Shown piece by piece: positions 38,783 to 57,896 of a DNA stretch of 64,000 nt. Below the pieces are notes generated by a model, which was not told the DNA's origin, made no database searches, and saw only the letters and a program-made list of their open reading frames with translations. The DNA is taken from the NCBI GenBank assembly GCA_934131005.1, contig CAKOYV010000001.1, forward strand, positions 79,868-143,867. The letters run 5' to 3'. Position numbers and translations under genes: made by a program. Numbering within the stretch: position 1 is the stretch's first letter; every line of letters starts with the position of its first letter. This DNA is from an uncultured Bacilli bacterium (lineage in GTDB: Bacteria > Bacillota_I > Bacilli_A > RF39 > UBA660).

Positions 38783-38856
38783 TGGAGGGCCTAGTCGGAT
38801 TTGAACCAACGATCAGGGAGTTGCAGTCCCATGCCTTACCACTTGGCTATAGACCC
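38783..38856 (-). tRNA. tRNA-Cys (anticodon GCA), CCA encoded
   Basis: Cloverleaf folded by eye: acceptor GGGTCTA/TAGGCCC, D-arm GCCA..GGCA, anticodon loop CTGCAAC, T-arm GTTGG-TTCAAAT-CCGAC, 3' TCCA. Confidence 0.85.
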
Positions 38857-45066: not shown

Positions 45067-45993
45067 CTATAAATCAATTAATTTCATATAATTACTAGGC
45101 ATTCCCATCTTATCAAGAATTTTCTCTATTGGAATTGAATTAACAATACCATCTAATTTTTCTATCTCATACTCAACTTCTTTCATCATCATCCGAAATT
45201 CATCTTCCCGAAGTAAATATTTAAGGATAATAAAGACCGAAAACATATCATTTTTTCCATATATATATTCATTATCCATTCTAGGTATTTCTAACATCTC
45301 ATGATAAGGCGTATTAATAATTGACTTCTCTGTTCTATGTTCATAAACAATATCTTCATGAGCACATAAATTTCTATAATTAGATAAAATTGGTAAAAAG
45401 CTTTCCATATAATCAGTATTTATTCCAAAGATATCAGCAATTGCAATTTGATCTTCTGGTTTTAAAATAGAATAAAACTCACAAACAATCCCAAAAGACA
45501 AAACTTTAACTAAAACCCATAATGGAATATAACCATAATTATTAATATAATGCATCGTAGCCATATGATGAGCTCCATTAACTCTAACTTGTCTCTTAAT
45601 TTTCTCAATAACATCTTTAACTCTTCTAGCCTTAAGTCTATCATTGGTAAAATTCTTAGGATTTAAATAATCTTTATCACGATATCCATACTTCTTAGAT
45701 AATTGATAAGATATAATAGACTTTAAATTATTTTCAATAATCATTAAATTCTTAAACAAAATATTTCTAATATATCTATCAAATAAGAATATAGAATAAA
45801 GTTCTCTAAAAGTAGAACCTATTATAAAATTCCTATCTGCATAAGAATTCATAAGTAATCCTCTATATCCATTGATAAAAAAATAATTCTCTCGAAGAAG
45901 TATCTCTTTAGTTTGCTCTTCATCTTCTATTATTAAGCCTTTATCTTTAAGGATAGATAATTGCTCATCTAAAGTTTTAAATAGCTTCTCCAC
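45067..45993 (-). CDS. Abi_2 (AbiD/AbiF-like) abortive-infection protein
   Basis: LSFGIVCEFYSIL ... RNLCAHEDIVYEH matches the Abi_2 signature RNxxAHHxR. Confidence 0.6.
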   Translation of the reverse strand: MEKLFKTLDEQLSILKDKGLIIEDEEQTKEILLRENYFFINGYRGLLMNSYADRNFIIGSTFRELYSIFLFDRYIRNILFKNLMIIENNLKSIISYQLSKKYGYRDKDYLNPKNFTNDRLKARRVKDVIEKIKRQVRVNGAHHMATMHYINNYGYIPLWVLVKVLSFGIVCEFYSILKPEDQIAIADIFGINTDYMESFLPILSNYRNLCAHEDIVYEHRTEKSIINTPYHEMLEIPRMDNEYIYGKNDMFSVFIILKYLLREDEFRMMMKEVEYEIEKLDGIVNSIPIEKILDKMGMPSNYMKLIDL

Positions 45994-46056
45994 TAGCGCA
46001 CCACCTTACCATAACAGTATACCATAATATAGAGAAAAAAGATATCTTTTTAATTT

Positions 46057-47109
46057 TTAATGTAAACTATTTTTCTTCTTCTTAGCCTTAAAGCGGCCAA
46101 ATCTTGCCTCTATATAATCATTAATAGATTCATAGTCATAAAGTCTAAGTATTCCTAAAATAGTCTTCTTATTAAGGGAAGTCATTATCTCCCTAGGATT
46201 CCCCATATCTCTAGTAAAACACTTAACATCACCACTATCAAGATACTCATGAAAAATAGCTTCTACCTTAGTATAATCATTATATTTATCAAACAGACAA
46301 GAAATAACATAATCAAGCATTGCTATTGAAGAATAGTAAAAAGAACAATCTCCCGTCATAGGATAATCTGCATCAACAATTCCTTCCTTAACTAAATATC
46401 CTCTCATATAATATCCCAAATAAGCAGCCGCTCCAAAAGTATTCTCAATCTCACGAGAAAGACTATCATCAAGATTTAAACTTTTAATATTATTTGTATT
46501 CAAATATTCATCTATAACCCTATAACCAGATTCATAATAATTACCACTAATACATTGATACTTACTCATAACAGAAATTACCATTCGATTAATAATATCT
46601 AGCTTCTCATCATAACTCATAACTTTAGCAATTACTTCTTTCGTATTATTCACCTTAACATTATTTTTAGAAGATGTTTTAGAAGAAGGCAATATCTTAT
46701 CTTTTTTCTTTCTTTTATAACCCTTAACATATATATAATTAGCACGTAAAGCCTTAAAATCTCTATTACTAAGACTATAATTATCATCGCTAATTTTCTC
46801 TAATAACAAAGAAAGCTTATTTCCCTCTTCATCTTTATAACTAGGACTCTTTTTTATAACTTCTCTAATCTTTTTATTATCAACCTCTCCCTTAACAATA
46901 AATATTCCATTATTGCAAAGAAGCTTCATATCATTATCCGTAAGTCTATAATTAACTCGTTCATTAATTCTAAGAAGTAAATTAAGTAAATCATTCTCTT
47001 GCATATATCCCGATTCCTTTAAATGAATACCATTATTAATATCCATCAAGTAAGAATTAAGCTTTTTTTCAATTAACTTCTTAACTTCTACACCCTTCAA
47101 TATATCCAC
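46057..47109 (-). CDS. Hypothetical two-domain protein immediately upstream of the Abi gene
   Basis: 350 aa; basic linker KRKKKDKILPSSKTSSK between two domains; 63-nt gap to the Abi_2 gene. Confidence 0.3.
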   Translation of the reverse strand: MDILKGVEVKKLIEKKLNSYLMDINNGIHLKESGYMQENDLLNLLLRINERVNYRLTDNDMKLLCNNGIFIVKGEVDNKKIREVIKKSPSYKDEEGNKLSLLLEKISDDNYSLSNRDFKALRANYIYVKGYKRKKKDKILPSSKTSSKNNVKVNNTKEVIAKVMSYDEKLDIINRMVISVMSKYQCISGNYYESGYRVIDEYLNTNNIKSLNLDDSLSREIENTFGAAAYLGYYMRGYLVKEGIVDADYPMTGDCSFYYSSIAMLDYVISCLFDKYNDYTKVEAIFHEYLDSGDVKCFTRDMGNPREIMTSLNKKTILGILRLYDYESINDYIEARFGRFKAKKKKNSLH

Positions 47110-48680: not shown

Positions 48681-49343
48681 CTATTTATTAAAATAATCAA
48701 CAACACCATCTACAATATTATTAGTCAAAATATCCTGATACTTACTTTGCCTAATTTTGTAATTATCCTGACTATTACTAATAAAACCAGCCTCTACCAA
48801 AATACCAGGTACCTTTATTTTAGAATACATATAATACCCATTTTCTTGTTTATAATCTCTAACATTTGACATATTACTAGACAACTTCTTAGTTACACTC
48901 TCGGCAAGAAGTTTATTATCCCTAACAACATTACTATAAAAAACTTGTATTCCATGCCACTTACTACTAGGACTAGCATTAAGATGCATAGAAATATACA
49001 CATCACAACCTGCACTGTTAATGAATCTAGCTCGCTGATATAAATCATTTCGCTTCCGGTTAATCTCTCCTTCTGCCAAATCATAATCCCCATCACGTGT
49101 CAAAAATACCATAGCACCTCTATTAAAAAAATTAATCGCAAGCTTTGAAGTAAGCTCTAAATTCATATCTTTTTCCAAAATATTAGAAGAAATAGCTCCC
49201 GCATCAACGCCACCATGACCAGCATCAAGACAAATACTCTTCCCCACCAAATCATAGCCTCTAATCTTAGCATTAACAACACCAAAACAAAATACACAAA
49301 TAAAAAATATAATTAACATAAGTGTTTTATATTGTCTCATCAA
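48681..49343 (-). CDS. cwlD: N-acetylmuramoyl-L-alanine amidase, CwlD-like (germination-specific type)
   Basis: LDAGHGGVDAGA, ISMHLNASPSSKWHGIQVFY, LVEAGFISN; short family-3 amidase with signal anchor, as in CwlD. Confidence 0.7.
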   Translation of the reverse strand: MMRQYKTLMLIIFFICVFCFGVVNAKIRGYDLVGKSICLDAGHGGVDAGAISSNILEKDMNLELTSKLAINFFNRGAMVFLTRDGDYDLAEGEINRKRNDLYQRARFINSAGCDVYISMHLNASPSSKWHGIQVFYSNVVRDNKLLAESVTKKLSSNMSNVRDYKQENGYYMYSKIKVPGILVEAGFISNSQDNYKIRQSKYQDILTNNIVDGVVDYFNK

Positions 49344-49493: not shown

Positions 49494-50939
49494 CTAACTT
49501 ATACCATTAAATTCCTTTATTCTACTCCTAGCCTTTGTAGTTTGCACATCTCCTAACCATTCTTCTCTAGGGCCACGAGACTTAACATCAGTAATAATTT
49601 TAACTCTATCTTTATTATGTAAAACATAATTAGCATCAACCAACTTATCATTAACAATAGCCCCGATAATCATATTACCAATATCTGTCTGAATTTTATA
49701 AGCAAAATCAATTGCTGTTGAACCACGAGGCAATTCTATAACTTGACCACGAGTAGTATAAACATATATCTTATCAGCAAATAACTCTTCACGTACCTTT
49801 GCAACAAACTCCTTACTATCCGAAAATGCATCATTAATCTCTACTAACGAATTATAAAATTGAAACTTATTCTTCAAATCATTTTGCATAATATCCCTCG
49901 TATTTTTCTTCAAATTCCAATAAGCAACAATTCCAAACGATGCAACCTTATCCATATCAAAAGTCCTAATTTGAGTTTGAACTAATCTATCATCCTCGCC
50001 AAAAACAGTAGTATGAAGAGAACTATACATATTAGTCTTAGGATTAGCTATATAATCTTTAAACTTATTATTAATAGGACGATATTTAGAATGAACAAGA
50101 CCTAAAGTTTGATAGCAATTAATTGTATCATCAACCATAACTTTCAAAGCTAGCAAATCATGAATATCACTAATATTATGCCCAGCCTTAAGTCTCTTAT
50201 AAATACCATAAACATTCTTCGTTCTAACTTTTATCTCATGTGGAATATTTTTATCACTAAGAACTTCATCTATCATTTCATACATCTGCTCTAAACAATG
50301 CTTACTATCATCACAAACTCTCCTCTGAATATCACAAGTTCCCTGATAAACATTAGGATATAAATATTTAAAAGACAAATCTTCTAACTCACTCTTAATT
50401 CTATATGCCCCTAAATAATAAGCAAAAGGCACAAAAATATCCATTGTCTCCATCGCATTCTCTTTTTGCTTAAGCTCTGACTTAAAGCCTAATGTTCGCA
50501 TATTATGAAGTCTATCAGCAAGTTTAATAATTATTATTCTAACATCATTCATAACCCCTGTAATAATCTTTCGCGTATTAGCATTTACTCTATCCTCCTT
50601 AGAAGAAAAATTCAATTTAGAAATCTTTGTAACCCCATCTACCAGATTAGCAATAACTTCATTAAAGTAAATACTAATCTCCTCATAAGTAGCTTTTGTA
50701 TCTTCTAAAGTATCATGCAAAAGAGCTGCACAAATCGTTTGAGTATCAGCATTCATTTGCGCTAAAATATAAGCAACATTAAGAGGATGCGTAATATAAT
50801 CCTCTCCACTCTGTCTAACCTGTCCATGATGCATATAATCAGCAAAATCATAAGCTCGCTCAATCATTAATAAATCATCTATATTCTTATTATACTTTAA
50901 AACTTCCTCTTTTAAATCTTCTAACCTTATATTACTCAT
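49494..50939 (-). CDS. RelA/SpoT-family protein: intact HD hydrolase domain, degenerate synthetase motif, TGS domain, no ACT/C-terminal regulatory region
   Basis: HD: HHGQ...HD..ED intact. Synthetase: VQTQIRTFDMDKVASFGIVAYW, whereas canonical sequences have EVQIRTxEMHxxAExGxAAHW. TGS: YVYTTRGQVIELPRGSTAIDFAY. Only 481 aa. Confidence 0.75.
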   Translation of the reverse strand: MSNIRLEDLKEEVLKYNKNIDDLLMIERAYDFADYMHHGQVRQSGEDYITHPLNVAYILAQMNADTQTICAALLHDTLEDTKATYEEISIYFNEVIANLVDGVTKISKLNFSSKEDRVNANTRKIITGVMNDVRIIIIKLADRLHNMRTLGFKSELKQKENAMETMDIFVPFAYYLGAYRIKSELEDLSFKYLYPNVYQGTCDIQRRVCDDSKHCLEQMYEMIDEVLSDKNIPHEIKVRTKNVYGIYKRLKAGHNISDIHDLLALKVMVDDTINCYQTLGLVHSKYRPINNKFKDYIANPKTNMYSSLHTTVFGEDDRLVQTQIRTFDMDKVASFGIVAYWNLKKNTRDIMQNDLKNKFQFYNSLVEINDAFSDSKEFVAKVREELFADKIYVYTTRGQVIELPRGSTAIDFAYKIQTDIGNMIIGAIVNDKLVDANYVLHNKDRVKIITDVKSRGPREEWLGDVQTTKARSRIKEFNGIS

Positions 50940-51135
50940 TCCTTAAACCTTCCTTTTCAACATAAATATAAACAAAAAAAGACAGCATCAAAATACTATC
51001 TCCAATTAACTGTATAAATATTAAAAAACTTAATAATAAAACCCATCCACATACTTATACCTCCAAAAAATATTTAATTTAATATACTCTCCTTTATAAT
51101 AATTGTCAACTATTTTTATCTAAATTTATACAAAT

Positions 51136-52737
51136 TTATTTAAAACTTTTATATAAAGATGCAATGTGTTCAAATACTAAGACACCATCCATAGCTGCTG
51201 AAGTAATTCCTCCCGCATAACCAGCACCTTCTCCAGCTGGAAATATCCCTCTATAATTAGCCTCTCCATGTTCATCTCTAATAATTCTAACTGGCGAAGA
51301 AGTTCTACTCTCAACACCAGCAACAATTACATCATCATCACCAAAACCTTTTATCTTCCTAGAAAAAGCATTCATCCCTTCTACAAAAGCTAAATTAACA
51401 TACTCAGGAAAAATATCCCAAACCTTAGAAAAATTATATTCTCCCTTAAAAATAGGCTTTATTTTACCAAATTTATGAGAAAGTTTTCGCATACGATAAT
51501 CACCATATAAACAAACAGGAATACGACCATTGCCAACAAGGTAAGCCCTACGCTCCAAATCTTCTTGAAATTTAATACCTGCCATGGGATTAGTACCAAA
51601 ATCATCTGGCCCAACCGTTACAATAACAGCACTATTAGCATTACCACTATCACGTTTATAATTACTCATTCCATTAATAGCAAGCCTCCCTTCTTCACTA
51701 GAAGCATTAACAACATAACCACCGGGACACATACAAAAAGTATAAACTCCCCTATTATTAGAAGCCCTATGAACAAGCTTATAACTAGCCTCCTTCAAAA
51801 TATCATGCTTTAAAACTCCATATCTGCTCATATTAATCATAGATTGTGGATGTTGAACTCTAACTCCTACCGCAAAAGGCTTAGCCTCCATACAAACTCC
51901 TCTTTCATATAACATCGAAAAAGTATCTCTAGCACTATGACCAATTGCCAACACTAAAGCATCACATAAAATCTCTTCTCCATTATCAAGAATAATAGAT
52001 TCTAACTTATCATTATTAACTTTTATATCAACAAGCTTTGTATTAAATCTAATTTCTCCTCCTAACGAAATAATTTTCTTATCAATATTACTAACAATTT
52101 TCTTTAAATTATCCGTCCCAATATGTGGTTTAGCTTCATACAATATCTCTTCATTAGCTCCTGATGCAACAAAAGTTTCAAATACTAATCTTTGTCTATT
52201 GCCCTTATCTCGAACTAATGTATTAAGCTTACCATCAGAATAAGTACCAGCCCCTCCTTCACCAAATTGCACATTTGAATCTAAGTTAAGTTTATCATTC
52301 TTCCAAAAATTATTAACATCAACATCCCTCTTACTAACCTTACTCCCTCTTTCAATAACAAGTGGCTGATAACCATATAATGCCAACATATATGCACACA
52401 TAAGACCACAAGGACCACTTCCTACAACAACTATTTTGTTCTTAATAGCAACTTCTCCTGTAGGAGTAAATTTATATTCTAAATCAGGAGCCTTAACTAT
52501 ATCATTATTATTATAATTCTTCTTAAGAAGCAACTCCTCATCTAAAACATCAACATCTACTGTATAAATATAATAAATATTAGGCTTATGTCTAGCATCA
52601 ACAGAACGTTTAAAAATCCTTAACCCCAAAATATCCGAAGACTTAATTTTTAATTTATTACTTACTTCCTCTTTTAATAATAAATCACTATTTGCACTAA
52701 CTAAAATTTTAACTTGTCTTACTCTAATCATTAACAA
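51136..52737 (-). CDS. FAD-dependent dehydrogenase (COG2509-like)
   Basis: VVVGSGPCGLMCAYML Rossmann motif; C-terminal FAD-dependent domain. Confidence 0.65.
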   Translation of the reverse strand: MLMIRVRQVKILVSANSDLLLKEEVSNKLKIKSSDILGLRIFKRSVDARHKPNIYYIYTVDVDVLDEELLLKKNYNNNDIVKAPDLEYKFTPTGEVAIKNKIVVVGSGPCGLMCAYMLALYGYQPLVIERGSKVSKRDVDVNNFWKNDKLNLDSNVQFGEGGAGTYSDGKLNTLVRDKGNRQRLVFETFVASGANEEILYEAKPHIGTDNLKKIVSNIDKKIISLGGEIRFNTKLVDIKVNNDKLESIILDNGEEILCDALVLAIGHSARDTFSMLYERGVCMEAKPFAVGVRVQHPQSMINMSRYGVLKHDILKEASYKLVHRASNNRGVYTFCMCPGGYVVNASSEEGRLAINGMSNYKRDSGNANSAVIVTVGPDDFGTNPMAGIKFQEDLERRAYLVGNGRIPVCLYGDYRMRKLSHKFGKIKPIFKGEYNFSKVWDIFPEYVNLAFVEGMNAFSRKIKGFGDDDVIVAGVESRTSSPVRIIRDEHGEANYRGIFPAGEGAGYAGGITSAAMDGVLVFEHIASLYKSFK

Positions 52738-53962
52738 TCTCTCCCGTACAATTAATTCCAGCTATTAGACCAGTTGTCCAAGCAAAAGTCAAGTTATAAC
52801 CACCACAATCTCCATCTACATCAACAACTTCCCCAGCTATATAAATACCAGGAACCTTCAAAGATTCCATTGTTAATGGATTAATATCTTCTAAACTAAC
52901 TCCTCCTGAACAAACTTGAGCTTCATGAAAAGTATTAGTTCCATTAATCTCTATTTCAAAATTAACAATAGCATTAATAAGCTTTCTTTTTTCATCCATA
53001 TCAAGCTCATCATATTTTTTATCTTTACCAATCCCTACATACTTAATTAAAAAGTTAGATAGTTTATAATTCATAATATTATCTAGCAAATCGGTAACCT
53101 TTCTTCCTCTTAATTTCTTAGCATAACTATCCAAAAATTCTTCTAGCTCCGAAGCACAACTTACTAAATCAGCAACAAAATTTATTCTAACAAAAACACG
53201 ATTTCCATTATCTAAATATCTAGCAGCATCTCCACCAAGCTGCATCGCACATATACCACTTATTCCATATATTGTAAGTAAAATCTCCCCAACACAACTT
53301 CTAATAACTCTATCATCAACAACTAACGAAATATTAGCATTACTTCTAATTCCAAGCCATCTTTTACATAACTTACTATCATCAATCCTAAGTTGTACCA
53401 ACGCTGGTAACGGCTTAATAATTTTATGACCTAACTTCGCTATAATATCATAGCCATTATTAACTGCATTCTTATAATAAGCATAACTACCAGTAGCCAT
53501 TATAACTCTATCACAGCAATATCCACGCTTATCAGTATGAACAATAAACTTATCACCAGATGCTACTATATCACTTGCCCAAATATTATTAACAATCTTA
53601 ACTCCTAAAATCTCACACTCTAACAACAAAGCATTAACAATACTAACAGCCTGATTAGAAAAAGGATAATAATAACCATCCTTAACTCTAGGAACTACCC
53701 CAATAGAATCAAAGAAATCAAGTACCATCTTATTACTTTTATCATTAATAATATTTTTTATATATAAATCTTCCCCGTTTGTATGATAATGACTAATATT
53801 TTGATCATCATTATAATAATTACATCTTCCATTTCCCGTAACCAAAAGTTTCTTACCACAATTCTTCTCTTTTTCTAAAACAATAACATTTCCTCCATGT
53901 CTTGCTGCCGTTATCGCACTAACTAATCCAGCAGCACCTCCACCTATTACAACAATATCCAT
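52724..53962 (-). CDS. HI0933/BaiN-family flavoprotein
   Basis: IVVIGGGAAGL..LEKEKNCGKKLLVTGNGRCN signature. Confidence 0.75.
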   Translation of the reverse strand: MDIVVIGGGAAGLVSAITAARHGGNVIVLEKEKNCGKKLLVTGNGRCNYYNDDQNISHYHTNGEDLYIKNIINDKSNKMVLDFFDSIGVVPRVKDGYYYPFSNQAVSIVNALLLECEILGVKIVNNIWASDIVASGDKFIVHTDKRGYCCDRVIMATGSYAYYKNAVNNGYDIIAKLGHKIIKPLPALVQLRIDDSKLCKRWLGIRSNANISLVVDDRVIRSCVGEILLTIYGISGICAMQLGGDAARYLDNGNRVFVRINFVADLVSCASELEEFLDSYAKKLRGRKVTDLLDNIMNYKLSNFLIKYVGIGKDKKYDELDMDEKRKLINAIVNFEIEINGTNTFHEAQVCSGGVSLEDINPLTMESLKVPGIYIAGEVVDVDGDCGGYNLTFAWTTGLIAGINCTGEIVND

Positions 53963-54075
53963 ATACTTCCCTCCAAACTAATATATATATAGTATATCAT
54001 AAATAAGTCATTGATTATTTTTAAAATTAATTTTATAATAGAAGATATAAAAATATAAAAGAAAGGTGTTAGTTT

Positions 54076-54570
54076 ATGAAAGAAATAAATCCTGATAATT
54101 TTGATTTTAATCCTTTTAATTTAAAAGAAAATTGGGCTCTACTTACAAGTGGAGATGAAAATAAAATAAATACAATGACTATATCTTGGGGAACATTTGG
54201 TTTTCTTTGGAATAAAAATATTGTAACCATCTACGTAAGGCCTCAAAGATACACTAAAAAATTTATTGATAAAACCGGCTATTTTACTTTATCATTTTTT
54301 GATAATAAATATAAAAGTGAATTAACTCGTCTAGGTAGAGTTAGTGGGGCTAATATTGATAAGTTAAAAGACAGCCCTCTTTCTCCTTACATAGATGGAA
54401 ATATAGTATCTTTTAAAGAAGCTAATATTATAATAGTTGCTAAAACTTTATACGTATCAGAATTAAAAGAAAACGATTTTCTAGATTCTAATATCAAGAA
54501 TATTAATTACCCAAACCAAGATTACAGTTATCAATATATCGCTGAAATAGAGAAGATTTTAATCAAATAA
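54076..54570 (+). CDS. Flavin-reductase-like FMN-binding split-barrel protein
   Basis: LLTSGDENKINTMTISWGT pattern. Confidence 0.55.
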   Translation: MKEINPDNFDFNPFNLKENWALLTSGDENKINTMTISWGTFGFLWNKNIVTIYVRPQRYTKKFIDKTGYFTLSFFDNKYKSELTRLGRVSGANIDKLKDSPLSPYIDGNIVSFKEANIIIVAKTLYVSELKENDFLDSNIKNINYPNQDYSYQYIAEIEKILIK

Positions 54571-54590
54571 TCTTCTCTATTTTTTATATT

Positions 54591-54857
54591 CTAATTACTA
54601 GCTATAACATAAGGATTAGCCTTCGTCCCATTACCTTCACTAATTAATGTATCTTTTTTCAAATTAATAACAGGCCTTACGCCAAGCCAATAACAATCTG
54701 TCCACCCATCATTATGCAACACTCCATCGGAAGCCACATTCCACATTACACTAGAAACCCTATAATTAGAAAAATAAGAAGGTGACATTGTCCAAAAAGT
54801 CTGACCCGTTATTAACCAATTAAGAGGATTGGCGGTCTTATCAGAAATTCCTGCCAA
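54591..54857 (-). CDS. Short ORF with TTG start; possibly the 3' remnant of a gene truncated at the adjacent Rpn fragment
   Basis: No ATG; the Rpn-fragment repeat lies immediately 5' of it on this strand. Confidence 0.2.
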   Translation of the reverse strand: MAGISDKTANPLNWLITGQTFWTMSPSYFSNYRVSSVMWNVASDGVLHNDGWTDCYWLGVRPVINLKKDTLISEGNGTKANPYVIASN

Positions 54858-54877
54858 AAATGCCTCATCTACAGTTA

Positions 54878-54982
54878 TTAAAGCAAAAAGTATCTTATAA
54901 AATTATTGCTACATCTGCTTCTATTTCTGCCCTAGACGTAAAAAAGATAGAAAACTCCATGCAAAGTGGAGACTAACTCTAT
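54878..54982 (+). repeat. Third, about 105-bp 3'-terminal fragment of the Rpn-like transposase gene
   Basis: Near-identical to 43820-43918; ends TAACTCTATCTTTT. Confidence 0.55.
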
Positions 54983-55021
54983 CTTTTTTATTTATAACAA
55001 ATTTAAGTTTCATAATATTCA

Positions 55022-56473
55022 TTACTTAATCAAATCTGATTTATCTTCATATTTAGTATGTAACAATTCATGAGCTACATTACTAAGAGGACTCTCTAAA
55101 AACTCAGCATATAACTTTTTAATCTCTGGATTTTCATAACTGCACCTAATTTTTTGTGCTTTATCCCTATTATAAAGTGCCTTCATTCTCTTTTCTTTTA
55201 TTTCTTTCTCATGATAAATTTCTATCTTAGGTTGACCTCCACCACCTATACAGCCACCCTGACAATTCATAACCTCAACAAAATGATATTTTCTCTTACC
55301 ATCTCTAATCTCATCTAATATCCTACGAGCTTTTCCTATTCCATGAATAACACAAACATCAATTTTCTCATTTCCAATATTAATAGAAGCCTCTTTAACA
55401 TTATCATAACCTCTAACACTATTAAAATCCAATTTATCTATATCTAAATTTTTACCTGTAATCAAATAATAAGCCGTTCTAAGAGCTGCTTCCATTACAC
55501 CACCAGTACTACCAAAAATAACACCAGCACCACTGCCCTCTCCAAACATAGAATCAAAATCACTATCTGGAATATCTTCATACTTAATTTTTTTCTCTTT
55601 AATAACATCTATTAACTCATTAAGAGTAATAACCAAATTAGTTCCTCTAATCTCATCTCTTTTGATTTCGTACTTCTTTGCTGTACAAGGAGTAATTGCT
55701 ACAGTATACATATTATCTTCATCTATATTCTTAAACTTAGTAAAATACTTACTAATAACACTCCCCATCATGGCAATTGGACTCTTACAAGTAGAAATAT
55801 TAGATAAAAGACTTGGATAAAACTGCTCTGCATACTTAACCCAAGCAGGGCAACAACTAGTAAACATTGGCAAATTAGAATTATTATTAATTCTCATAAC
55901 TAACTCGCTAGCTTCTTCCATAATAGTCAAATCAGCTCCAAAAGTAGTATCAAAAACATAATCAAATCCTAACATTCTAAGCAAACCAACAACTTTTTTC
56001 TGTTCAAAAGAACCATATTCAAGCCCAAATATTTCCCCTAAAGAAACTCTAACTGCAGGAGATATATAAGCAATACACACTTTTTTATTTAAATGTGCTT
56101 CCTCAAATAAAGAAAATTCATATCTAGCACTAAGCGCCTTCGTCGGACAAGTTTGAATACATTGACCACAGCTAACACAAAGTTCACTATTACTATCAAA
56201 CTGCATTCCCTCACGAATAACACAAGTCTGTGTACAAATTCCACAATTAACACATAAATCATTATTTCGAACAACCCCCTTATTATCAAGAGATATTTTA
56301 ACCGCATTAGAAGGTGTCATATCACTAGATGAATTATCACTAACAGAAGAAAATAAATTTATTGTAGCACCACACATAGGACAAGTCCACTCACTAGATA
56401 ATTTATCAAATTTAATATCTTCCCTATCTTCATCATAAACATAACCACAAATCATACATTTATATTTACTCAT
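55022..56473 (-). CDS. [FeFe]-hydrogenase with N-terminal rubredoxin domain and two [4Fe-4S] ferredoxin motifs
   Basis: Rubredoxin CMICGY...CPMCG; CVNCGICTQTC and CVSCGQCIQTCP; H-cluster motifs TSCCPAW, TPCTAKKYE, VEVMNCQGGCIGGGGQP. Confidence 0.8.
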   Translation of the reverse strand: MSKYKCMICGYVYDEDREDIKFDKLSSEWTCPMCGATINLFSSVSDNSSSDMTPSNAVKISLDNKGVVRNNDLCVNCGICTQTCVIREGMQFDSNSELCVSCGQCIQTCPTKALSARYEFSLFEEAHLNKKVCIAYISPAVRVSLGEIFGLEYGSFEQKKVVGLLRMLGFDYVFDTTFGADLTIMEEASELVMRINNNSNLPMFTSCCPAWVKYAEQFYPSLLSNISTCKSPIAMMGSVISKYFTKFKNIDEDNMYTVAITPCTAKKYEIKRDEIRGTNLVITLNELIDVIKEKKIKYEDIPDSDFDSMFGEGSGAGVIFGSTGGVMEAALRTAYYLITGKNLDIDKLDFNSVRGYDNVKEASINIGNEKIDVCVIHGIGKARRILDEIRDGKRKYHFVEVMNCQGGCIGGGGQPKIEIYHEKEIKEKRMKALYNRDKAQKIRCSYENPEIKKLYAEFLESPLSNVAHELLHTKYEDKSDLIK

Positions 56474-56534: not shown

Positions 56535-57077
56535 TTAATAATTTTCACTCTTAATCTCAAAGAAACTTTGAGGATGAGAACATATAGGACAAACCTTAGG
56601 AGCTTCCTTACCAATAACCACATGGCCACAATTACGACAAATCCAAATCTTTTCTCCATCCTTAGAAAATACTAAACCATTCTCAACATTATCAAGTAAT
56701 TTTCTATATCTTTCTTCATGCTCTTTTTCTATTTTAGCAACTCCCTCAAAAAGAAATGCTAATCTATCAAATCCTTCTTCACGAGCTGTCTTAGCAAACT
56801 CTGCATACATATCAGTCCATTCATAATTTTCTCCCTCAGCAGCTGCTAGTAAATTACCCATAGTAGAAGGAATTTCTCCACCATTTAATTCTTTAAACCA
56901 TAACTTAGCATGTTCTTTTTCATTATTAGCAGTCTCTTCAAAAATAGCTGCTATTTGCTCATAGCCATCCTTTTTAGCTTTTGAAGCAAAATAAGTATAC
57001 TTATTTCTAGCTTGACTCTCACCAGCAAAGGCAGTCATTAAATTTTGATACGTTTTACTATCTTTAAGTTCCATCAA
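56535..57077 (-). CDS. rbr: Rubrerythrin
   Basis: Di-iron ferritin-like EKEH motifs plus C-terminal rubredoxin CxxC...CxxC. Confidence 0.85.
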
Positions 57078-57142: not shown

Positions 57143-57706
57143 TCATTGCTTTTTATCTTCAGCTTTTTCATCTGTTTTTATATAATCATCTCGAACACTA
57201 TTATCTATCTCATTAGAAACTTCATCATCATAACTAACATCATCTATTACATCCCATGGATCTTCATCTTCTTCAACAGCAACTTTAACCTTTGTATCTC
57301 CAACTATTTCTACTCCTAATTCTTTTTCAATTTCAATCGAAATACTCTTACCATCTTCATGTGCTTTAATACAATTAGGTTGTTTCAAACTTCTAACTAT
57401 TATATCTTTACTAGAAGTTGAACTAGATTCCCTCTGCCTTACCATCACAGCTTCTGAATATTTAATTTTCTTTGTAATAACAGTAGTCTTAGTATCATTA
57501 TTATAAGAATACCAAATATTAACATCAAAACTACCATCTATTATAATCTTTCCTCCAACATCACTTCCTTTAAATTTATGATTAATAACCCAACATCCTA
57601 AAACAGTACTAGGCTCCTGCTCTGTATCCAAAACATATGTATTTTTATAATATTTTTTACCTTTACCAATTATCGCTTTCGTAACTATTTCTTTATACGC
57701 AGCCAA
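57143..57706 (-). CDS. cotE: Spore coat morphogenetic protein CotE
   Basis: AAYKEIVTKAIIGKGKK...PSTVLGCWVINHKF...VNIWYSYNNDTKT aligns residue-for-residue with the B. subtilis CotE N-terminus, and the tail is acidic. Likely TTG start at 57706 after AGAGGGGTGA. A sigma-K-like -10 (CATAAATTA) lies upstream. Confidence 0.75.
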   Translation of the reverse strand: MAAYKEIVTKAIIGKGKKYYKNTYVLDTEQEPSTVLGCWVINHKFKGSDVGGKIIIDGSFDVNIWYSYNNDTKTTVITKKIKYSEAVMVRQRESSSTSSKDIIVRSLKQPNCIKAHEDGKSISIEIEKELGVEIVGDTKVKVAVEEDEDPWDVIDDVSYDDEVSNEIDNSVRDDYIKTDEKAEDKKQ

Positions 57707-57896
57707 GATAATCACCCCTCTAATTTAATTTATGATGATCATCCCAAAAAAGTACTATAAAAATTATATATATACACTTTAACAAAAAAATATAGATATA
57801 AAAGCATAAACCAAAATTTTAAATTATGCTAATATATCTATTACTCTTAATTTATATACTATCAAGCTATTAATTATAAAATCTATACTAAAGCCC

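What the first reader, a model, noticed from the sequence alone, without database searches (positions are those of the whole stretch)
49494..50939. Short Rel/SpoT homolog with intact hydrolase but degenerate synthetase catalytic motif
The HD-domain residues (HHGQ, HD, ED) are intact. In the synthetase domain the conserved EVQIRTxEMHxxAExGxAAHW segment reads VQTQIRTFDMDKVASFGIVAYW. The glutamate whose E-to-Q change is the standard synthetase-dead mutation in Rel enzymes is Q here, and the downstream His and Glu residues are also replaced. The protein stops after the TGS domain (481 aa), lacking the ACT/RRM regulatory end. This predicts a hydrolase-only, ribosome-uncoupled SpoT-like enzyme, with alarmone synthesis supplied by another gene.
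Basis: partly seen in the sequence, partly recalled or inferred. Interest (0 to 1): 0.5.

Follow-up and report, generated by a model that had tools for sequence, protein, structure and literature searches.

The report
Short hydrolase-only Rel of gut Bacilli
This gene encodes a shortened form of the bacterial stress-alarm enzyme Rel that keeps its alarm-degrading half intact, carries natural versions of known synthesis-killing mutations, has lost its ribosome-sensing tail, and is conserved in this form across a whole lineage of uncultured low-GC gut bacteria.

Summary
ORF 49494-50939 (-) encodes a 481-aa RelA/SpoT homologue with HD, SYNTH-fold, Core and TGS regions and nothing after TGS. The catalytic Glu of the synthetase (RelSeq E323, B. 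subtilis E324, E. coli RelA E335) is Gln. The His of AAHW (RelA H354) is Tyr, and R269 is Lys.

This is a family trait, not a lesion in one genome. All 120 close database homologues and all 46 species-level genomic homologues have Gln and end just after TGS. Among 50%-identity cluster representatives, the short forms make one clade of 35 (31 Q, 2 K, 1 H, 1 L, no E). By contrast, 102 of 104 full-length Rel proteins have Glu. Every hydrolase catalytic residue is retained.

The dead SYNTH domain is under purifying selection as strong as the HD domain (dN/dS 0.075 against 0.063). The tRNA-sensing His of TGS is relaxed, and is Gln in this protein.

Best reading: a ribosome-independent, monofunctional alarmone hydrolase derived from Firmicute Rel. 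It arose independently of the Moraxellaceae hydrolase-only SpoT, and it resembles engineered B. subtilis Rel truncations that gain hydrolase activity.

Whether another synthetase exists in these genomes could not be tested. No activity has been measured.

The parts
49494..50939 (-). Complete gene for the 481-aa short RelA/SpoT homologue (HD, pseudo-SYNTH, Core, TGS)
   Evidence: ORF; Pfam and NCBIfam domains; the exact protein is found in 91 blocks of public assemblies.
50409..50855 (-). HD (alarmone hydrolase) domain, residues 29-177, with all catalytic residues intact (R42, H51, H75, D76, E79, D80, D142, R143, N146)
   Evidence: Pfam HD_4 E=3.8e-38. Catalytic residues are retained in 32-35 of 35 short-clade representatives. 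dN/dS 0.063.
49902..50225 (-). Pseudo-synthetase (SYNTH-fold) domain, residues 239-346
   Evidence: Pfam RelA_SpoT E=7.2e-29. All six clade-specific replacements of otherwise invariant Rel residues lie here. dN/dS 0.075. The residues equivalent to RelSeq K297, D298, K304, N306, Y308, S310 and H312 are 100% conserved in 46 species.
49977..49979 (-). Codon CAA = Q321, at the position of the catalytic Glu (RelSeq E323, B. subtilis E324, E. coli RelA E335)
   Evidence: Alignments; codon. Q in 120/120, 46/46 and 31/35 homologues, against E in 102/104 long forms. E323Q abolishes RelSeq synthetase.
50142..50144 (-). Codon AAA = K266, at the position of the invariant Arg R269
   Evidence: Long forms have R in 104/104. 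The short clade has K in 28/35 and in 46/46 species. The equivalent RelTt R277 is listed among the adenosine/guanosine-coordinating residues; the equivalence rests on my offset inference.
49920..49922 (-). Codon TAT = Y340, at the position of the His of AAHW (E. coli RelA H354)
   Evidence: Long forms have H in 102/104; the short clade has Y in 27/35. Numbering verified. H354Y reduces RelA synthesis.
49770..49901 (-). Core / linker helices between pseudo-SYNTH and TGS, residues 347-390
   Evidence: Predicted helices 348-371 and 375-387, at low to moderate confidence. dN/dS 0.118. In A. baumannii SpoT the Core helps align the hydrolase site.
49590..49769 (-). TGS domain, residues 391-450; Q417 (49689-49691) replaces the tRNA-CCA-stacking His (B. 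subtilis H420, RelA H432)
   Evidence: Pfam TGS E=2.3e-20. H is 104/104 in long forms and 14/35 in the short clade. Role of H420; codon.
49494..49589 (-). C-terminal tail, residues 451-481 plus stop: the conserved end of the protein in the whole clade. No helical, ZFD or RRM region follows.
   Evidence: All 49 genomic homologues stop within a few residues of this point. No CTD remnant by tblastn.
51081..51109 (-). Promoter-like site TTGACA-17-TATATT upstream of the gene (consensus match only)
   Evidence: 11 of 12 matches.

Best explanation
The gene encodes a monofunctional, ribosome-independent alarmone ((p)ppGpp/pGpp) hydrolase descended from the bifunctional Rel of low-GC Firmicutes. I write it here as Rel[Hs]-deltaCTD.

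Shown by sequence: the HD active site is fully intact and strongly constrained. The synthetase site has lost its catalytic carboxylate (E to Q) and carries R269K and H to Y. The helical, ZFD and RRM regions that anchor Rel to the ribosome are gone. The TGS His that reads the tRNA CCA end is no longer constrained.

Inferred mechanism: the protein sits permanently in a hydrolase-competent state. The retained pseudo-SYNTH, Core and TGS modules serve as the intramolecular scaffold or allosteric partner that the HD domain needs for activity. This would explain why they are kept under purifying selection while the rest of the CTD was discarded. Alarmones would be made by a separate enzyme, most likely a RelQ/RelP-type small alarmone synthetase, and removed by this protein. 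The lineage would then have no amino-acid-starvation (ribosome/tRNA) input through this protein.
For: (1) Residue equivalence is confirmed against three solved Rel/RelA proteins.

(2) The same changes have known effects. E323Q and D264G eliminate detectable RelSeq synthetase activity (Hogg 2004, as cited in PMC13299517). H354Y reduces E. coli RelA synthesis (PMC4154780).

(3) Comparing 35 short-clade representatives with 104 full-length ones, only six positions fixed in Rel are systematically replaced, and all lie in SYNTH (B. subtilis R269, E324, E337, H343, Y346, K347). All nine HD catalytic positions are kept.

(4) Relaxation of Rel-invariant sites by domain: HD 4/37, SYNTH 15/36, TGS 4/11, the last including H420.

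(5) The short forms are monophyletic in an NJ tree. None has Glu at the site, and all are 402-545 aa.

(6) Purifying selection holds in every retained module: dN/dS is 0.063 for HD, 0.075 for SYNTH, 0.105 for TGS and 0.118 for Core.

(7) Experiments on B. subtilis Rel fit this design. Deleting RRM and ZFD raises hydrolysis and compromises synthesis. The NTD alone is nearly hydrolase-dead. A synthetase-dead mutant (D264G) has elevated hydrolysis. tRNA inhibits hydrolysis through H420 (PMC7797070).

(8) In the hydrolase-only A. baumannii SpoT, Core and TGS align the HD site, while HEL/ZFD/RRM only fine-tune it (PMC9974481).

(9) The AF2 model (pLDDT 83.5) superposes its NTD on S. aureus Rel NTD at TM 0.94 and rmsd 1.9 A.
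Against: No activity has been measured, and E to Q is a conservative change that could leave residual catalysis.

Unlike A. baumannii SpoT, almost all other substrate-contacting residues are strictly conserved (R241, K243, D264, K297, K304, N306, Y308, H312, Q325, R327). That is more than a mere scaffold would seem to need.

The presence of any alarmone synthetase in these genomes is unverified.

The predicted position of TGS relative to HD is low-confidence. Core pLDDT is about 51-55, and the TM to the SpoT tau-state is only 0.54. The scaffold role is therefore inferred from other proteins.

The NJ tree has no support values.
Confidence: 0.7

Rival explanations
1. The protein is still bifunctional. 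With Gln in place of Glu it retains a weak or differently regulated pyrophosphokinase activity, possibly with another acceptor or metal, and supplies basal alarmone itself, as E. coli SpoT does.
For: Nearly every other substrate-binding residue of the SYNTH site is invariant in 46 species. The domain is as constrained as HD. D264 and Q325, the two residues called catalytic in RelTt, are kept. R269K and K251R preserve charge.
Against: E323Q abolishes detectable synthesis in RelSeq and H354Y lowers it in RelA. Glu is present in 102/104 full-length forms. In the short clade the site also tolerates K, H and L, which cannot substitute chemically for a carboxylate. The cluster with K has 23 members, all but one 489-491 aa (one 238-aa fragment), so K is a real variant.
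Confidence: 0.12
2. These reduced genomes have no alarmone synthetase at all. The conserved HD domain then works on another substrate, for example NADPH as in metazoan Mesh1, (p)ppApp, or alarmones delivered by competitors or phages. The protein would not be part of a stringent-response circuit.
For: No second RSH or SAS in the window or in about 0.8 Mb of related loci. The genomes are small; one complete relative is 1.52 Mb. The model's HD domain also matches Mesh1 structures at TM about 0.76. Animals keep Mesh1 without any synthetase (my own knowledge).
Against: The loci sample only about 1% of each genome, so the absence says little. SAS genes are common in Firmicutes (my own knowledge, and Atkinson 2011, PMC3153485). 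The HD residues are those of (p)ppGpp-hydrolysing Rel enzymes, with no clade-specific change at the active site. Keeping an entire SYNTH fold plus TGS fits a Rel-type regulated alarmone hydrolase better than a generic phosphatase.
Confidence: 0.1
3. The short ORF is a pseudogene or an assembly/frameshift artefact of a full-length rel gene.
For: Individual fragmentary or split copies do exist. L045 has the gene in two ORFs, and the P0137 cluster contains members of several lengths.
Against: Nearly all of about 170 homologues from independent assemblies share the same stop position, the exceptions being a few fragmentary or split copies. No CTD remnant follows the gene. dN/dS is 0.06-0.12 throughout. 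The exact protein recurs in 91 assembly blocks.
Confidence: 0.01

Closest known systems
Bifunctional Rel of Firmicutes (B. subtilis Rel, S. aureus Rel, RelSeq)
   Same: It is the nearest sequence and structure relative. HMMER E=2e-114 to B. subtilis Rel 6yxa. The NTD model matches S. aureus Rel NTD at TM 0.94. The HD site is identical, domain order is the same up to TGS, and there are no indels in HD. The closest full-length proteins are about 44-52% identical and come from other low-GC gut Bacilli.
   Different: The catalytic Glu is Gln, with R269K and H343Y. The helical, ZFD and RRM regions are missing. The tRNA-sensing His is relaxed. The gene is not in the rel-dtd operon that the full-length sister forms keep.
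Hydrolase-only SpoT[Hs] of Moraxellaceae (A. baumannii SpoT, PDB 7qpr)
   Same: It has the same functional outcome: a long RSH with an active HD and a retained, non-catalytic pseudo-SYNTH domain. Core and TGS support the hydrolase site, and the enzyme is insensitive to ribosomes.
   Different: The origin is independent (Rel of Firmicutes, not gammaproteobacterial SpoT). The route to inactivation differs. SpoTAb replaced D272, Q347, R249, R277 and Y329 (RelTt numbering) and no longer binds GDP. This clade keeps four of those five and changes the Glu instead. SpoTAb keeps the full CTD, which this protein lacks. The partner synthetase (RelA) is known there and unknown here.
RshC[HS] of Bacillus (Atkinson et al. 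2011)
   Same: The architecture is similar. [quoted passage not shown]
   Different: RshC was found in six Bacillus strains as a second copy beside Rel and was classed as [HS], with both sites intact. This clade has a dead synthetase site and occurs in uncultured low-GC gut Bacilli. I had no RshC sequence to compare directly.
Engineered B. subtilis Rel truncations and D264G (Takada et al. 2021)
   Same: Deleting RRM and ZFD raises hydrolysis and lowers synthesis, and a synthetase-dead mutant has elevated hydrolysis. Removing the whole CTD including TGS nearly abolishes hydrolysis. The natural protein combines the two hydrolase-favouring changes and keeps TGS.
   Different: Those are laboratory constructs. 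The deltaZFD-RRM construct (1-583) still has the helical domain, whereas this protein ends at about the equivalent of B. subtilis residue 484.
Small alarmone hydrolases (Mesh1, RelH, PbcSpo and others)
   Same: They are monofunctional HD-domain hydrolases with no ribosome link. The HD domain of the model matches them at TM about 0.7-0.77.
   Different: SAHs are single-domain proteins of about 180 aa. This one retains the SYNTH fold, Core and TGS under selection.

Membership tests
RelA/SpoT homologue superfamily, long RSH class | N-terminal HD domain followed by a RelA_SpoT (SYNTH) fold | tested here: met
   PF13328 E=3.8e-38 and PF04607 E=7.2e-29. TIGR00691 scores 516 bits against a cut-off of 499. 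Structure matches.
RelA/SpoT homologue superfamily, long RSH class | TGS domain after the catalytic half | tested here: met
   PF02824 E=2.3e-20 at residues 391-450.
RelA/SpoT homologue superfamily, long RSH class | Helical, ZFD (CC) and RRM/ACT C-terminal domains | tested here: not met
   The protein ends 31 residues after TGS. TIGR00691 is matched only to position 447 of 687. No remnant by tblastn. Full-length sister forms carry PF19296, PF28438 and PF13291. Atkinson 2011 lists such truncations as rare exceptions within long RSHs.
Bifunctional Rel [HS] | Intact hydrolase catalytic residues (HD, ED, R44, H53, D144, N148 in RelSeq numbering) | tested here: met
   All are present here and in 32-35 of 35 clade representatives.
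Bifunctional Rel [HS] | Intact synthetase catalytic carboxylates (D264 and E323) | tested here: not met
   D261 is present, but E323 is replaced by Q321. No member of the clade has Glu there.
Bifunctional Rel [HS] | Descent from Firmicute Rel (nearest relatives are Rel) | tested here: met
   Best PDB hits are Firmicute and actinobacterial Rel. The adjacent group in the NJ tree is 700-720-aa Rel proteins; the closest full-length proteins come from low-GC gut Bacilli and carry a rel-dtd operon. The tree has no support values.
Bifunctional Rel [HS] | tRNA-CCA-sensing His in TGS (B. subtilis H420, RelA H432) | tested here: not met
   Q417 in this protein. H in 104/104 long forms and only 14/35 short-clade representatives.
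SpoT[Hs] (Moraxellaceae-type hydrolase-only long RSH) | Active HD together with a synthetase site lacking catalytic residues | tested here: met
   Met at the sequence level. Activity was not measured.
SpoT[Hs] (Moraxellaceae-type hydrolase-only long RSH) | Member of the gamma/beta-proteobacterial SpoT lineage, paired with RelA | tested here: not met
   The nearest relatives are Firmicute Rel. A. baumannii SpoT (7qpr) scores far lower, E=8e-65 against 2e-114 for B. subtilis Rel. A partner synthetase could not be searched for.
SpoT[Hs] (Moraxellaceae-type hydrolase-only long RSH) | Full-length CTD forming the compact tau-state | tested here: not met
   HEL, ZFD and RRM are absent. TM to 7qpr is 0.54.
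RshC (Atkinson 2011) | Truncation within the helical domain with TGS retained | tested here: met
   compared with the description.
RshC (Atkinson 2011) | Both catalytic sites predicted active [HS]; second copy beside Rel in Bacillus | tested here: not met
   The synthetase Glu is lost. Hosts are uncultured low-GC gut Bacilli MAGs, not Bacillus. Whether a second RSH co-exists is not testable here, and no RshC sequence was available for a tree.
Small alarmone hydrolase (SAH) | Single HD domain only | tested here: not met
   There are three further conserved modules.
Functional alarmone circuit (hydrolase plus separate synthetase) | A gene with an intact SYNTH site elsewhere in the same genome | not testable with these tools
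   None in the window or in 49 loci.

The most novel reading that the evidence does not exclude
The dead SYNTH domain is not just a scaffold but a ligand sensor. The clade keeps the residues equivalent to RelSeq K297, D298, K304, N306, Y308, S310 and H312 at 100% identity, keeps D264 and Q325, and selects specifically for Gln at the catalytic position. That is a classic 'bind but do not turn over' substitution. The domain would bind GDP/GTP (or an alarmone) and allosterically gate the hydrolase, reusing the antagonistic SYNTH-HD coupling of Rel as a nucleotide-pool sensor in place of ribosome and tRNA sensing. A stronger version: if these genomes lack any synthetase, the enzyme acts on a non-alarmone or foreign substrate.
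Probability: 0.18. Interest if true: 0.7.

Novelty: new variant of a known kind. Interest (0 to 1): 0.45.

Why it matters
Hydrolase-only long RSH enzymes have so far been characterised in one proteobacterial family, the Moraxellaceae SpoT. This would be an independent, naturally minimised example in Firmicutes.

Evolution has here performed the two manipulations that biochemists use to push Rel into its hydrolase state, killing the synthetase and deleting the ribosome-binding tail. It kept exactly the modules (pseudo-SYNTH, Core, TGS) that experiments say the hydrolase needs.

That makes it a compact natural test case for models of intramolecular control in Rel/SpoT enzymes. It also suggests that a widespread group of uncultured, small-genome gut bacteria has given up the classical ribosome-triggered stringent response.

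There is a practical side too. Members are currently labelled 'RelA/SpoT family protein' by NCBI and 'GTP pyrophosphokinase' by JGI. The second label probably names an activity the protein does not have.

Tried and rejected
(1) Search for a second synthetase. I ran phmmer with the whole protein and with the B. subtilis SYNTH domain against all ORFs of 50 aa or more in the window and 49 loci. Nothing scored below E=1 apart from the RSH genes themselves. This is uninformative for whole genomes.

(2) Supplementary tables of the RSH census (Jimmy et al. 2020) were checked for the CAG:776 and CAG:451 genomes. The tables are not held.

(3) A literature search for RF39 together with ppGpp found nothing relevant.

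(4) Conserved operon partners. Neighbours of the window gene are not shared with the other loci, and no neighbour family occurs in more than 8 of 49 loci. dtd is absent beside every short form.

(5) Co-occurrence of the short form with the full-length sister Rel in one genome. I looked up encoding contigs for P0117 and P0335 and compared flanking proteins. There was too little overlap to decide.

(6) 'Short form that still has Glu' as an evolutionary intermediate. The P0137 cluster has members of 370-537 aa and the gene sits at a contig end, so it is probably a fragment. P0232 is a genuine short form with Glu, but in an unrelated Gram-negative organism.

(7) Domain arrangement from AlphaFold. 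Two models were made (pLDDT 74.5 and 83.5). The Core linker stays at low confidence, so I draw no conclusion about TGS docking.

(8) A conserved upstream leader peptide. The 18-codon uORF in the window has no counterpart in the other loci.

(9) Pseudogene or artefact: rejected.
Full report
**1. What is in the sequence**

The ORF at 49494-50939 on the minus strand is intact (ATG start, 481 aa). A purine-rich AAGGAAGG stretch lies just upstream of the start. A near-consensus promoter-like site (TTGACA-17-TATATT) lies at 51109-51081.

Pfam finds three domains: HD_4 (29-177), RelA_SpoT (239-346) and TGS (391-450). The NCBIfam RelA/SpoT subfamily model TIGR00691 is matched only over positions 1-447 of 687. 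The best solved relative is B. subtilis Rel (6yxa, E=2e-114), followed by mycobacterial and S. aureus Rel.

**2. Residue equivalence**

In the HMMER alignment the query segment LVQTQIRTFDMDKVASFGIVAYW lies gap-free on [23 protein letters not shown] of B. subtilis Rel. I checked the numbering on E. coli RelA (5iqr, native numbering): E335 is the Glu of EIQIRT and H354 is the His of AAHW. RelSeq E323 is the same column.

The catalytic Glu is Q321 (codon CAA, 49977-49979), the AAHW His is Y340, and the Glu of AExG is S334. I add R269 to K266. The hydrolase residues are all there (R42, H51, H75-D76, E79-D80, D142, R143, N146).

**3. It is a family, not an accident**

- The 120 best database homologues (67-99% identical, 469-497 aa) all have Gln at the site.
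- A scan of one genome per species found 49 loci, 46-69% identical. The record titles read 'uncultured Bacilli bacterium', 'Mycoplasma sp. CAG:776', 'Clostridium sp. CAG:451', 'Bacillales bacterium UBA660' and 'Candidatus Onthousia'.
- Every homologue stops within a few residues of the same point after TGS. All 46 complete ones have Gln.
- From memory these names belong to the GTDB order RF39, but I could not verify that.
- The exhaustive search of 50%-identity representatives returned 40 short and 104 full-length proteins among the top 150.
- In a neighbour-joining tree the short forms make a single clade of 35. It contains 31 Q, 2 K, 1 H, 1 L and no E, and all members are 402-545 aa. 102 of 104 full-length proteins have Glu. 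The tree has no support values.
- The cluster with Lys has 23 members, all but one 489-491 aa (one 238-aa fragment), so it is a real variant.
- Both Gln codons occur, CAA 45 times and CAG 5 times. This fits retention of Gln through synonymous change.

**4. Where the clade differs from Rel**

Over the whole protein, only six positions that are at least 90% fixed in full-length Rel are systematically replaced in the short clade. All six lie in the SYNTH domain: B. subtilis R269K, E324Q, E337S/T, H343Y, Y346L/I and K347x.

With a looser criterion (Rel-invariant residue kept in fewer than 70% of the clade), the affected sites are:

| Domain | Relaxed / Rel-invariant sites |
|---|---|
| HD | 4 / 37 |
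| SYNTH | 15 / 36 |
| TGS | 4 / 11 |

None of the four HD sites is catalytic. The TGS set includes B. subtilis H420. That His stacks on the CCA end of the A-site tRNA, and its substitution abolishes activation by deacylated tRNA (PMC7797070). It is His in 104/104 full-length forms, in 14/35 of the short clade, and is Gln in this protein.

**5. The retained modules are under selection**

Nei-Gojobori dN/dS was computed on 60 pairs of genomic homologues (80-97% amino-acid identity):

| Region | dN/dS |
|---|---|
| HD | 0.063 |
| SYNTH | 0.075 |
| TGS | 0.105 |
| Core | 0.118 |
| HD-SYNTH linker | 0.148 |

Column entropy across 46 species tells the same story, 0.67 for HD and 0.77 for SYNTH. The dead domain is therefore not decaying.

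Most substrate-contacting residues are strictly kept: R241, K243, D264, K297, D298, K304, N306, Y308, S310, H312, Q325 and R327. This contrasts with the hydrolase-only SpoT of A. baumannii. There the equivalents of R241, D264, R269, Y308 and Q325 are all replaced and GDP no longer binds (PMC9974481). The mapping from T. thermophilus numbering to RelSeq numbering is my inference from the offset at D272/D264.

**6. The truncation is clean**

tblastn with the C-terminal halves of seven full-length relatives finds nothing in the window or in the loci. The downstream gene is an Amidase_3 protein.

The full-length sister proteins (716-721 aa, in about 25% GC gut Bacilli contigs) keep the classical rel-dtd arrangement. 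No short form has dtd next to it. The neighbourhoods of the short forms are not conserved.

**7. Mechanism**

Established from the literature:
- E323Q and D264G abolish detectable RelSeq synthesis.
- H354Y lowers RelA synthesis.
- In B. subtilis Rel, deleting RRM and ZFD raises hydrolysis and compromises synthesis.
- The isolated NTD is almost hydrolase-dead.
- The synthetase-dead D264G variant hydrolyses faster.
- tRNA inhibits hydrolysis through H420 (all four points).
- In A. baumannii SpoT, Core, TGS and Mn2+ align the hydrolase site, whereas pseudo-SYNTH, ZFD and RRM tune it.

Inference: the short protein is a constitutively hydrolase-competent Rel derivative. It kept the parts the HD domain needs and dropped the parts that couple Rel to the ribosome. 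The AlphaFold models agree with a canonical Rel NTD (TM 0.94 to S. aureus Rel NTD). They do not place TGS with confidence. I put this reading at about 0.7.

**8. What remains open**

No SAS or second RSH occurs in the window or in about 0.8 Mb of related loci. With unconserved synteny, each locus samples only about 1% of a roughly 1.5-Mb genome. Whole genomes were out of reach.

Three readings therefore stay alive:
- residual synthetase activity (about 0.12);
- a non-alarmone or foreign substrate in genomes without a synthetase (about 0.10);
- a nucleotide-sensing role for the conserved dead site (about 0.18), which is compatible with the main reading.

**9. Comparison with known families**

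The protein is a long RSH by domain content and a Rel derivative by descent. It fails the defining features of bifunctional Rel: the synthetase Glu, the full CTD and the tRNA-sensing His.

It works like the Moraxellaceae SpoT[Hs] but is not a member of that lineage. It was inactivated by different substitutions and lacks the CTD.

Its architecture resembles RshC[HS] of Bacillus, which is truncated in the helical domain with TGS kept (Atkinson 2011). RshC was classed as having both sites intact and is a second copy in Bacillus. I had no RshC sequence for a direct test.

Truncation after TGS has also happened elsewhere with the Glu kept (P0232, 484 aa, next to lpxB in a Gram-negative organism). 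Truncation and inactivation are therefore separable events. I found no paper describing this clade.

**10. Verdict**

This is a new variant of a known kind: an independently evolved, C-terminally minimised, hydrolase-only Rel. It is of moderate interest to specialists and readily testable.

Noticed in passing
window 50996-51052 (-): An 18-codon ORF (MWMGFIIKFFNIYTVNWR) with a GGAGG ribosome-binding site lies between the promoter-like site and the RSH start codon. No comparable upstream peptide exists in the other 49 loci, so it is probably not a conserved leader.
   Followed up: partly
window 57143-57715 (-) and 48681-49343 (-); L050 3234-3797: A CotE (spore coat) homologue lies a few kb upstream of the RSH gene and an Amidase_3 protein lies directly downstream. 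A spore-coat homologue raises the possibility that this small-genome, low-GC gut bacterium forms spores.
   Followed up: no
window 45067-47109 (-): An Abi_2 (abortive infection) protein sits next to a 350-aa protein with no Pfam match. This could be a small phage-defence locus. It is not shared with the related loci.
   Followed up: no
window 51136-56473: There is a redox gene cluster upstream of the RSH gene: an FAD-dependent protein (PF21688), an HI0933-like flavoprotein, a flavin reductase-like protein, and an [FeFe]-hydrogenase with an N-terminal rubredoxin-like segment. Rubrerythrin follows at 56535-57077.
   Followed up: no
L045 9991-11436 ('Clostridium sp. CAG:451', FR901071.1): In this genome the short RSH gene is split into two ORFs (356 and 150 aa) with a disrupted sequence after FGLTA. 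This is either a frameshift or assembly error, or a real pseudogene in that strain.
   Followed up: no
L064 4001-5455 (protein P0232): This is a genuine 484-aa HD-SYNTH-TGS protein with a fully canonical synthetase motif (EIQIRT...AAHW). It lies next to lpxB on a 192-kb contig. It represents an independent truncation after TGS in a Gram-negative lineage, without loss of the Glu.
   Followed up: partly
L054-L062 (protein P0335 and relatives): Full-length Rel (716-721 aa), 52% identical to a short-clade member (L046) over 476 residues, occurs in other ~25% GC (L054) gut Bacilli contigs in the classical rel-dtd arrangement. Whether these organisms are a sister lineage or also carry the short form is unknown.
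   Followed up: partly
whole window: GC content is 24-34%, with strongly negative GC skew (-0.17 to -0.52) throughout. Nearly all long ORFs are on the minus strand. This is as expected for a stretch of one replichore with genes co-oriented with replication. There is one tRNA-Cys at 38783-38856 (-) and no other Rfam match.
   Followed up: no
short-clade representatives P0139, P0155, P0260, P0135: A minority of the short clade has Lys, His or Leu instead of Gln at the catalytic-Glu position. The Lys variant is a populated cluster of 23 sequences. This argues that catalysis is truly dispensable, although Gln is preferred.
   Followed up: partly
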